DNA from: Escherichia coli
GTDB lineage: Bacteria; Pseudomonadota; Gammaproteobacteria; Enterobacterales; Enterobacteriaceae
DNA: 64,000 bases
Strand: one strand, 5' to 3'
NCBI RefSeq assembly: GCF_045037415.1
Contig: NZ_CP173440.1
Position 1 is the stretch's first letter. Each line of letters opens with the position of its first letter. Shown in pieces: positions 60,463 to 61,405 of this stretch. Made by a program: the position numbers and the translations under genes. The notes beneath the pieces are model-generated. The model saw only the letters and a list, made by a program, of their open reading frames with translations. It had not been told where the DNA came from and did no database searches.

Positions 60463-61405
60463 GTATTCCCCCCGTGTGCGGGGGTTATCGGCAACCTCAA
60501 TTCCTAATGGCTGTCTAAGGAAAGTATTCCCCCCGTGTGCGGGGGTTATCGGCAGGGTTTGCCCTTTTGCACCGCGCAGCGGTCGTATTCCCCCCGAGTG
60601 CGGGGGTTATCGGAGCAACGTTTCCGGATTATATGGCTGGAACGTGTATTCCCCCCGTGTGCGGGGGTTATCGGTGGTGCTCTCAACCGTCACCCGCTGG
60701 CTGGAAGTATTCCCCCCGTGTGCGGGGGTTATCGGTGGTGTTGTCCACGGTCACCCGCTGGCTGGAAGTATTCCCCCCGCATGCGGGGGTTATCGGGCAC
60801 CCTCACGGATACCTTTTGCACAGTGTTAGTATTCCCCCCGCATGCGGGGGTTATCGCCTTAGAGAAGCAAAAACCCCACCGAGGCAGGGGTATTCCCCCC
60901 GTGTGCGGGGGTTATCGGTTACTTTTTGGCAGTTGGTAAAACACTTTTGCGTATTCCCCCCGCATGCGGGGGTTATCGGCGAAAACGGCAACCTTCATAA
61001 AAACGTCTTTTGTATTCCCCCCGTGTGCGGGGGTTATCGGCCGAGATTGAGTAAAGCAAAGTAACGGCGGTGGTATTCCCCCCGCATGCGGGGGTTATCG
61101 GCAGCGTCTGAACGGACGAAACATCCCTGTTGAGTATTCCCCCGTCTGCGGGGGTTATCGGCGAGCGCTCTCCTGGTAAATCGGTAGCTCGGAGTATTCC
61201 CCCCGCATGCGGGGGTTATCGGGCTGGATTTCCGTCAGTTGGTCAGCTGCTGCTGTATTCCCCCCGTGAGCGGGGGTTATCGGTTCCGGACTCCTGTTTC
61301 CGGCAGTGGATTAAAGTATTCCCCCCGCATGCGGGGGTTAACGGCACTACCAGATCCGAATGGACACCCGTAATGAGTATTCCCCCCGCACGCGGGGGTA
61401 TCGAC
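60463..61405 (+). CRISPR. CRISPR array: 16 repeats of 29 bp, 15 spacers of 32 bp
   Basis: repeat GTATTCCCCCCGTGTGCGGGGGTTATCGG at 61-bp periodicity; AT-rich leader at 60400-60462; degenerate terminal repeat at 61377. Confidence 0.95.

What the first reader, a model, noticed from the sequence alone, without database searches (positions are those of the whole stretch)
60463..61405. CRISPR array microstructure: conserved stem with variable loop, near-duplicate spacers, decaying distal repeats
Repeats keep the stem CCCCCCG...CGGGGG while the four central bases vary (TGTG, AGTG, CATG, TCTG, TGAG, CACG), as expected for a Cas6-recognised hairpin under stem-only constraint. Spacers 4 and 5 (60675-60706 and 60736-60767) differ at only five positions (TGGTGCTCTCAACCGTCACCCGCTGGCTGGAA vs TGGTGTTGTCCACGGTCACCCGCTGGCTGGAA), suggesting independent acquisition from two alleles of one target or diversification after duplication. 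Repeat 12 (61134) is 28 bp, and repeats 15-16 are degenerate, placing the leader at the cas-proximal side.
Basis: seen in the sequence. Interest (0 to 1): 0.55.

Follow-up and report, generated by a model that had tools for sequence, protein, structure and literature searches.

The report
Known plasmid type IV-A3 CRISPR array

Summary
Window 60463-61404 is a real CRISPR array: 16 repeats and 15 spacers at a 61-nt period. It lies 65 nt downstream of a complete type IV-A3 cas operon (csf1, cas6, dinG, csf3, csf2). The leader matches the experimentally used p1530 leader over its 55 published bases, and PLSDB holds near-identical arrays on K. pneumoniae IncFIB/IncHI1B plasmids.

- The true register is a 28-nt repeat plus a 33-nt spacer whose first G comes from the AAG PAM.
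- Spacers 4 and 5 differ at 4 positions, not 5.
- Repeat 15 carries a single substitution.

All repeat variants recur in many independent assemblies, so they are not sequencing errors. Loop variability over a conserved 6-bp stem, the 65-bp leader and the AAG PAM were published in 2020.

Spacer 4 matches exactly, and spacer 5 at 32 of 33 bases, natural AAG-flanked alleles of one 73-codon gene on small ColRNAI plasmids. All differences between those alleles are synonymous. Related arrays hold three such spacers in a row. This supports independent same-register acquisition, not duplication followed by drift.

The window's array is a one-unit deletion derivative of a 16-spacer relative.

Verdict: already known system, low interest. 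Minor new details are the ColRNAI target and a tentative bias of spacer loss towards repeats with identical loops.

The parts
55423..56214 (+). csf1 (cas8-like large subunit) of the type IV-A3 operon
   Evidence: PADLOC typeIV_Cas8 Csf1gr8 E=5.5e-151 and Csf1_2_IVA3 E=1.8e-122
56217..56783 (+). cas6 (csf5), Cas6e-like endoribonuclease that should cut the repeats
   Evidence: PADLOC Cas6_0_IVA3 E=7.8e-86, scored on the ORF 56211-56783. The start used here is taken from the RefSeq CDS in L001.
56786..58660 (+). dinG (csf4) helicase
   Evidence: PADLOC Csf4_0_IVA E=1.1e-262. NCBIfam DinG and cas_csf4 hits, all below their curated cut-offs. The start is taken from the L001 annotation.
58654..59361 (+). 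csf3 (cas5)
   Evidence: PADLOC typeIV_Cas5 Csf3gr5 E=7.2e-125
59366..60397 (+). csf2 (cas7) backbone subunit
   Evidence: PADLOC Csf2_1_IVA3 E=6e-151. The exact protein is listed in 5764 blocks of the assembly collection.
60398..60462 (+). 65-nt AT-rich leader (68% A+T) with a perfect TATAAT at 60439-60444
   Evidence: Bases 60408-60462 are identical to the 55 leader bases of p1530 given in Benz et al.. Newire et al. describe a 65-bp conserved leader. The consensus promoter scan found no full -35/-10 pair.
60463..61404 (+). CRISPR array: 16 repeats (28 nt; repeats 12 and 16 are 27 nt) and 15 spacers of 33 nt
60674..60706 (+). Spacer 4, GTGGTGCTCTCAACCGTCACCCGCTGGCTGGAA
   Evidence: 100% protospacer with AAG PAM in ColRNAI plasmid NZ_CP092406.1 (L002 951-983) and in L021 and L022
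60735..60767 (+). Spacer 5, same protospacer register as spacer 4, second allele
   Evidence: 32/33 match to the allele in L015 and L017. None of 76 target plasmids in PLSDB matches exactly.
60857..60889 (+). Spacer 7, the only window spacer starting with C; holds a terminator-like hairpin on the minus strand
   Evidence: Best non-array match is 31/33 in Escherichia phage SaltyDalty, with AG upstream instead of AA.
61134..61160 (+). Repeat 12: C5 run and loop TCTG; the full 6-bp stem is retained
   Evidence: In L061 and L065 an extra spacer sits here between two C5 repeats, so this repeat is a hybrid left by a deletion.
61316..61343 (+). Repeat 15 with TTAACG instead of TTATCG; this falls in the 5' tag of the last crRNA
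   Evidence: Unmutated in L007, L012 and L051-L058.
61377..61403 (+). Terminal repeat 16: hairpin intact (loop CACG), part downstream of the Cas6 cut site decayed (TATCG, followed by A)

Best explanation

**Shown here**
- A complete csf1-cas6-dinG-csf3-csf2 operon ends 65 nt upstream of the array.
- The leader matches the published one over its 55 published bases.
- Each repeat folds into a 6-bp G-C hairpin with a 4-nt loop.
- Spacers are 33 nt. Their first G is the last base of an AAG PAM in five of five well-matched targets.
- Spacer targets are other plasmids and Klebsiella temperate phages. My searches gave IncF plasmids for spacers 3 and 9, ColRNAI plasmids for spacers 4 and 5, and phages for spacers 10 and 12. 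The traL target of spacer 14 comes from the literature.

**Taken from published work on near-identical loci**
- The array is transcribed from the leader side.
- Cas6 cuts at the 3' base of each hairpin. This gives crRNAs with a 7-nt 5' tag (TTATCG plus G) and a hairpin 3' handle.
- The Csf1/Csf2/Csf3/Cas6 complex with DinG silences transcription of AAG-flanked targets.
- New spacers are inserted at the leader-repeat junction by the host's type I-E Cas1-Cas2 acting in trans.

**Microstructure, inferred from comparing 56 arrays**
- Loop bases drift because only the stem and the flanks are constrained.
- Spacers 4 and 5, and a third member in relatives, are successive acquisitions of the same protospacer from different natural alleles of a small ColRNAI plasmid gene.
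- The single extra difference between spacer 5 and its nearest natural allele is either a later change inside the array or an unsampled allele.
- Arrays grow at the cas-proximal end and lose units by repeat-repeat recombination. The window's array is a 16-spacer relative minus one unit. Its repeat 12 is a hybrid left by an older deletion.
For: - **cas genes:** (full-length PADLOC IV-A3 profiles).
- **Array anatomy:**
- **Hairpin:**
- **Leader and acquisition site:** (Benz et al., bioRxiv 10.1101/2023.06.23.546257; Newire et al., PMC7434947).
- **5' tag of 7 nt:** (PMC11519345).
- **Plasmid family:**. There are 3138 PLSDB records with matches, 2986 of them Klebsiella. The best match is the IncFIB/IncHI1B plasmid p5419/18_1.
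- **AAG PAM with G as spacer base 1:** for spacers 3, 4, 9, 10 and 12.
- **G as first spacer base:** 48 of 50 unique spacers.
- **Targets:**; literature targets for spacers 10, 12 and 14.
- **Spacer 4/5 alleles:** exact natural alleles exist for spacer 4 and for the two further family members found in related arrays. All 16 differences between two alleles of the 73-codon gene are synonymous. No exact spacer-5 allele occurs among 76 target plasmids.
- **Polarity and deletions:**. Different lineages add different spacers upstream of a shared core, and the distal part is shared.
Against: - Nothing contradicts the identification.
- I tested no activity (transcription, processing, interference). 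The window's own replicon type was not typed.
- The simple promoter scan found no full sigma-70 match in the leader.
- I did not find the exact source allele of spacer 5.
- Why one protospacer was captured three times is only inferred. The protospacer has an AAG PAM and ends in AA. From memory, such sites are favoured by I-E Cas1-Cas2, but I did not test this.
- Target alleles are not significantly more divergent inside the protospacer than outside. The counts are 5 of 33 against 11 of 189, Fisher p = 0.07. An escape-driven arms race is therefore not shown.
Confidence: 0.92

Rival explanations
1. Spacers 4 and 5 arose by tandem duplication of one repeat-spacer unit inside the array, followed by point mutation.
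For: - The two units are adjacent and 93% identical over 61 nt.
- Tandem duplicates of a spacer do occur in relatives; L048 has the same spacer twice in a row.
- Single-base spacer variants arise inside arrays.
- Spacer 5 has no exact target allele in PLSDB.
Against: - The four differences coincide exactly with natural synonymous polymorphisms of the target gene.
- Spacer 4 and the relatives' two other family members each match a natural allele 33/33 with an AAG PAM.
- No array among the 56 holds an intermediate with only some of the four differences.
Confidence: 0.05
2. The loop variants are not neutral drift. Either the loop is mutation-prone (CATG turns the repeat core into the perfect 16-nt palindrome CCCCCGCATGCGGGGG, as templated palindrome correction would), or interleaved loop types are retained because they limit recombination between repeats and so protect old spacers.
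For: - The two main loop types are interleaved in the old half of the array, while all recently added repeats are TGTG.
- CATG completes a perfect palindrome, as the sequence shows directly.
- Of 36 junctions that look like spacer losses, 24 lie between repeats with identical loops, against 14.3 expected. P is about 0.0005 overall and about 0.02 without the spacer-4/5 family.
Against: - A one-step intermediate loop, TATG, exists in L036, L061 and L065, so no concerted two-base change is needed.
- Losses between unlike repeats also occur, for example loss of spacer 7 in L048 and L050.
- The junction events are not independent. The signal disappears in the smallest clean subset (5 against 3.2, P = 0.15).
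- The run count of loop types in the fullest array is close to random: 10 runs against 9.5 expected by my own count.
- Loop states are stable across all arrays compared.
Confidence: 0.15
3. The irregularities (short repeat 12, loop variants, degenerate last repeats) are sequencing or assembly errors in a repetitive G+C-rich homopolymer region.
For: C-run length varies from 5 to 8 among repeats in different assemblies. Homopolymer runs are error-prone on some platforms.
Against: The same variants occur at the same spacers in independent complete plasmids from many countries and laboratories. This includes the C5 run of repeat 12, the TTAACG of repeat 15 and the CACG of repeat 16.
Confidence: 0.02

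Closest known systems
Type IV-A3 CRISPR-Cas of K. pneumoniae IncHI1B/IncFIB plasmids (CRISPR1 of Newire et al. 2020; p1530 of Benz et al. 2023; Kamruzzaman and Iredell 2020)
   Same: - Same gene set and order.
- Same leader: its 55 published bases are identical in the window.
- Same repeat, including the TG/CA loop dimorphism.
- Same AAG PAM and same 33-nt spacers with a PAM-derived G.
- Spacers 10, 12 and 14 are listed in the published spacer tables.
   Different: - Only the spacer complement differs. The window equals the array of pKpvST147B_virulence and pKpvST101_5 minus one repeat-spacer unit. I did not see this exact arrangement among the best PLSDB matches.
- The papers I read do not mention the ColRNAI-plasmid target of spacers 4 and 5.
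Type I-E CRISPR arrays (E. coli, K. pneumoniae)
   Same: - 28-nt palindromic repeat with 33-nt spacers.
- AAG PAM whose G enters the array.
- Cas6e-type hairpin processing.
- Leader-proximal insertion by Cas1-Cas2e, which serves this array in trans.
   Different: - No cas1, cas2 or cas3 at the locus.
- A DinG helicase takes the place of Cas3.
- Interference is by transcriptional repression rather than DNA degradation.
- The repeat sequence differs.
Type IV-A1 CRISPR-Cas (Pseudomonas oleovorans, P. aeruginosa)
   Same: Same subtype logic: a Csf complex plus DinG, plasmid-borne, acting by nuclease-free interference.
   Different: - Different gene order.
- 8-nt rather than 7-nt 5' tag.
- Different Cas8 architecture.
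- PADLOC IV-A1 DinG profiles score far lower here: E = 4.3e-17 and 3.2e-16 against 1.1e-262.

Membership tests
Type IV-A3 CRISPR-Cas | Effector genes csf1 (cas8-like), cas6/csf5, dinG/csf4, csf3 (cas5) and csf2 (cas7), in that order, next to an array | tested here: met
   All five ORFs match IV-A3 or type IV PADLOC profiles over their full length, with E from 1e-262 to 8e-86. The order is as in Newire et al. Fig. 1F.
Type IV-A3 CRISPR-Cas | No adaptation genes (cas1, cas2) and no cas3 at the locus | tested here: met
   The ORFs flanking the operon and array are an IS110-family transposase and a group II intron reverse transcriptase. The annotated 15-kb relative L001 has none. The rest of the 64-kb window was not scanned protein by protein.
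Type IV-A3 CRISPR-Cas | Conserved 65-bp leader between csf2 and the first repeat | tested here: met
   60398-60462 is 65 nt. Bases 60408-60462 are identical to the 55 leader bases printed in Benz et al..
Type IV-A3 CRISPR-Cas | Repeat GTATTCCCCCCG-NNNN-CGGGGGTTATCG forming a stem-loop | tested here: met
   All 16 repeats fold into a 6-bp stem with a 4-nt loop at about -12 kcal/mol. The z-scores against shuffles are weak (-1.4 to -2.0) because the sequence is short and G+C-rich.
Type IV-A3 CRISPR-Cas | 5'-AAG-3' PAM on protospacers | tested here: met
   AA lies upstream, and G is spacer base 1, for the targets of spacers 3, 4, 9, 10 and 12. The weak match for spacer 7 has AG followed by C.
Type IV-A3 CRISPR-Cas | Carried on large conjugative IncHI1B/IncFIB plasmids of Enterobacteriaceae | tested here: inconclusive
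   All close matches are such plasmids. I did not type the window's own replicon, and some relatives lie on chromosome-sized contigs.
Type IV-A3 CRISPR-Cas | Cas6-dependent crRNA maturation and DinG-dependent transcriptional silencing | not testable with these tools
   Shown for the near-identical p1530 system in the literature, not for this window.

The most novel reading that the evidence does not exclude
The array may record two processes not yet described for type IV-A3.
1. **Repeated capture of one protospacer.** The same protospacer register was captured from successive synonymous alleles of a small ColRNAI plasmid gene. Relatives hold three in a row. This would be a footprint of escape and re-immunisation at an acquisition hot spot.
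2. **Loop types limiting recombination.** Interleaved TGTG-type and CATG-type repeats may act as partial barriers to repeat-repeat recombination. Spacer loss would then occur mainly between repeats with identical loops, and old spacers flanked by unlike repeats would survive.
Probability: 0.15. Interest if true: 0.45.

Novelty: already known. Interest (0 to 1): 0.18.

Why it matters
Type IV-A3 systems sit on the large resistance and virulence plasmids of K. pneumoniae and are thought to mediate competition between plasmids. This window adds no new system.

It does illustrate points of practical use for annotation:
- the correct 28/33 register;
- how to read array polarity from related arrays;
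- that some spacers are aimed at small ColE1-like plasmids, not only at large conjugative ones.

If the tentative bias of spacer loss towards repeats with identical loops held up, it would be a small but general point about how repeat polymorphism shapes CRISPR memory.

Tried and rejected
- **Scan of species-representative genomes.** I searched for the repeat with a free loop and found 0 hits, so broader taxonomic sampling failed.
- **Rfam.** Over the array and its flank it found only the group II intron.
- **Promoter and terminator scan.** It gave no full promoter in the leader and no terminator after the array.
- **Target protein families.** Pfam and NCBIfam give no family for the 73-aa target protein. 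The only trace is a sub-threshold helix-turn-helix-like match to IS6 transposase, E = 0.005.
- **Non-array matches.** Searches for spacers 1, 2, 6, 8 and 11 showed only arrays among the rows sampled. Rare targets could have been missed. Spacers 13 and 15 were searched only against phages, with no hit. Spacer 14 was likewise searched only against phages; its traL target comes from the literature.
- **'Spacer 6 replaced' reading.** The best PLSDB relative has a different spacer at position 6. I first read this as a replacement. It is two alternative single-unit deletions from a longer ancestor.
- **Concerted two-base TGTG-to-CATG change.** I considered a template-switch origin and set it aside. 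The one-step intermediate TATG exists, and the strand-switch geometry offers no microhomology.
- **Strict alternation of loop types.** I set this aside as a signal because the run count is close to random.
- **Self-targeting.** No spacer matches the rest of the window with up to 7 mismatches.
- **Technical limits.** Loci fetched in parallel calls were not copied to the scripting machine, so I passed them through DNA alignment.

Full report
**1. What is in the sequence**

Window 60463-61404 holds 16 direct repeats with a start-to-start spacing of 61 nt (60 nt after repeat 12). They separate 15 unique spacers. Tandem Repeats Finder reports only 60646-60796, the stretch where two neighbouring units are 93% identical. 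No further copy of the repeat occurs elsewhere in the window on either strand.

Published work on the same system shows that this G is the last base of the AAG motif and enters the array with the spacer. That work extracts spacers with a 28-nt repeat and finds 33-nt spacers. I therefore use 28 + 33. On this reading the 'C' at the end of repeat 7 is the first base of spacer 7, not a repeat mutation.

**2. The surroundings**

Immediately upstream, on the same strand, lie five ORFs that match type IV-A3 profiles over their full length:

| Gene | Coordinates |
|---|---|
| csf1 (cas8-like) | 55423-56214 |
| cas6 | 56217-56783 |
| dinG | 56786-58660 |
| csf3 (cas5) | 58654-59361 |
| csf2 (cas7) | 59366-60397 |

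NCBIfam gives DinG and Csf2 hits, all below the curated cut-offs.

The 65 nt between csf2 and repeat 1 are 68% A+T and contain a perfect TATAAT. Bases 60408-60462 match, base for base, the 55 leader bases of plasmid p1530 printed in Benz et al., where Cas1/2e-dependent insertion at the leader-repeat junction was shown. Newire et al. describe the same 65-bp conserved leader, a stem-loop repeat with 'wobbles' in the loop, and an AAG motif.

An IS110-family transposase gene lies upstream of the operon, and a group II intron lies downstream of the array.

In PLSDB, 3138 plasmid records match the array region and 2986 of them are from Klebsiella. The best matches are conjugative IncFIB/IncHI1B plasmids.

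**3. Repeat microstructure**

The window's loops are TGTG (six repeats), CATG (six), and AGTG, TCTG, TGAG and CACG (one each). The stem CCCCCG/CGGGGG is unchanged in all 16 repeats. Every variant folds into the same 6-bp stem and 4-nt loop at -11.8 to -12.3 kcal/mol.

Repeat 12 has five Cs instead of six. The 3' arm has only five Gs plus the closing C, so the sixth C is unpaired and its loss leaves the stem intact.

Repeat 15 has one change (TTATCG to TTAACG). It lies in the 7-nt 5' tag of the last crRNA (tag length).

Repeat 16 keeps the hairpin but has lost a T, and the base after its TATCG is A rather than the usual G. That part lies downstream of the Cas6 cut and tags no spacer. The last repeat thus decays exactly where it is no longer needed.

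I compared 56 arrays (34 distinct) from PLSDB and from public assemblies. Each loop variant stays with its spacer. This excludes sequencing error.

Among the in-register repeat variants tabulated from the first 17 arrays, my hand count gives:
- about 9 or more substitution events in the 4 loop positions;
- 3 events in the 12 flank positions;
- 1 event in the 12 stem positions, C7T, which keeps a G-U pair.

The TG/CA dimorphism corresponds to the 'positions 16 and 17' wobble of Newire et al., counted on the reverse complement. The Cas6-hairpin contact itself is not resolved in the IV-A3 structure.

**4. Polarity and array history**

The fullest relatives are pKpvST147B_virulence and pKpvST101_5. 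They carry 16 spacers in the window's order, plus one more (GAGGTATTTGACC...) between window spacers 5 and 6.

- The window lacks that unit.
- The best PLSDB match, p5419/18_1, instead lacks window spacer 6.
- Both are single-unit deletions between two CATG repeats.

Other lineages start with window spacer 3, or carry different spacers upstream of it. Nearly all share the distal spacers.

Two relatives (L061, L065) keep an extra spacer between window spacers 11 and 12, flanked by two C5 repeats with loops TCTG and TATG. Window repeat 12 is thus a hybrid left by an older deletion.

**5. Spacer targets**

| Spacer | Target | Match |
|---|---|---|
| 3 | DUF6685 gene on 120-165 kb plasmids; the one typed, pF13_1, is IncFIB/IncFII | exact |
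| 9 | hypothetical gene on 70-190 kb plasmids; the one typed, pKP91, is IncFIA/IncFII | 31/33 |
| 10, 12 | Klebsiella temperate phages; Kamruzzaman and Iredell report their K. pneumoniae chromosomal matches | exact |
| 14 | traL of several hundred plasmids (published) | - |
| 7 | an E. coli phage | 31/33, weak |

For spacers 3, 4, 9, 10 and 12 the protospacer is preceded by AA, and its first base is the spacer's G.

Spacers 1, 2, 6, 8 and 11 showed only arrays among the rows I could sample. Spacers 13, 14 and 15 were searched only against phages, and none of them matched. No spacer matches the window itself.

**6. The near-duplicate spacers**

Spacers 4 and 5 differ at positions 7, 9, 12 and 15 of 33. 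That is four differences, not five.

- Spacer 4 has an exact, AAG-flanked protospacer in small (4.5-21 kb) ColRNAI plasmids of Klebsiella and Raoultella.
- The site lies at the end of a 73-codon gene whose end overlaps the start of a XerC-like tyrosine recombinase gene.
- A second natural allele (GTGGTGTTGTCCACGGTTACCC...) and a third (the same with C at position 3) also exist with AAG PAMs. Related arrays carry spacers identical to each of them. Several hold three members of the family in a row.
- All 16 differences between two alleles of the gene are synonymous, and the two encoded proteins are identical.
- Spacer 5 differs from the second allele only at position 18. None of the 76 target plasmids in PLSDB has the exact spacer-5 sequence.

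Single-base spacer variants do arise inside arrays, and the neighbouring spacer 4 has the same base at position 18. Spacer 5 is therefore best read as an acquisition from the second allele plus one later change, or as an acquisition from an unsampled allele. Duplication followed by drift does not explain the four differences.

Why the same register was captured three times is not settled. An acquisition hot spot is my inference: the protospacer has an AAG PAM and ends in AA.

An escape-driven arms race is possible but not shown:
- Divergence inside the protospacer is not significantly higher than outside (5 of 33 against 11 of 189, p = 0.07).
- Some alleles carry AGG instead of AAG.

**7. Exploratory lead**

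Among 36 junctions that look like spacer losses, 24 lie between parental repeats with identical loops, against 14.3 expected at random (P about 0.0005). Without the spacer-4/5 family the counts are 12 against 7.3 (P about 0.02). In the smallest clean subset they are 5 against 3.2 (P = 0.15).

The events are not independent, so this is a lead and not a result.

The CATG loop makes the repeat core a perfect 16-nt palindrome. The one-step intermediate TATG exists, so no special mutational mechanism is required.

**8. Verdict**

This is a member of a known, well-characterised system. The parts that are not in the papers I read are minor: the ColRNAI target, the same-register allelic series, the deletion history, and the tentative loop-dependent loss.

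Noticed in passing
window 61738 to about 63650 (Rfam hit 61771-61996; RT ORF 62101-63588): A group II intron with its reverse transcriptase/maturase is inserted between the array and umuDC. Relatives L005, L007 and L012 show the empty site (...TATATATACAGT|GTTTTTAAG).
   Followed up: partly
window 53366-54370: An IS110-family (IS4321-like) transposase gene lies just upstream of the cas operon. A 143-aa ORF with no family hit lies at 54929-55360, between it and csf1.
   Followed up: no
window 60857-60889 (spacer 7): This is the only window spacer that starts with C. It contains a terminator-like hairpin plus T-run on the minus strand, so it was probably captured from an intrinsic terminator. 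Its best outside match (31/33, an E. coli phage) has AG, not AA, upstream.
   Followed up: partly
L010 (CP154639.1, pEGY_KP22) 1300-3000: An orphan copy of the array: the leader and the cas operon are replaced by unrelated sequence that runs right up to repeat 1.
   Followed up: no
L012/L062 and L048 arrays: Internal rearrangements. In L012 and L062 the traL spacer occurs twice, around a spacer not seen elsewhere. In L048 one spacer occurs twice in tandem.
   Followed up: no
L032, L046, L047, L054, L065, L068 (gene tables): dinG is split or truncated in several relatives, often next to an IS transposase gene. Some IV-A3 loci are therefore probably inactive for interference.
   Followed up: no
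L032, L034, L038, L040, L042, L049, L050, L054-L056, L063, L067: The IV-A3 locus lies on contigs of 5.3-6.3 Mb. Either the plasmid is integrated in the chromosome or these are assembly joins.
   Followed up: no
L037, L039, L066 downstream of the array: A TnpB-like gene (Cas12f1-like_TNB domain) sits between the array and umuD in all three loci. In L039 and L066 an IS200/IS605 Y1 transposase gene lies next to it.
   Followed up: no
PLSDB records CP109984 with CP109988; CP092401 with CP092406; CP138764 with CP138766: Accession neighbours with the same source descriptions suggest that a IV-A3 plasmid and its ColRNAI target plasmid co-reside in the same strain. I could not check whether the resident allele matches the spacer.
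   Followed up: no
L003, L016, L018 (ColRNAI target alleles): A synonymous AAA-to-AAG change in the codon before the protospacer turns the PAM from AAG into AGG in some target plasmids. This could be a PAM escape.
   Followed up: no
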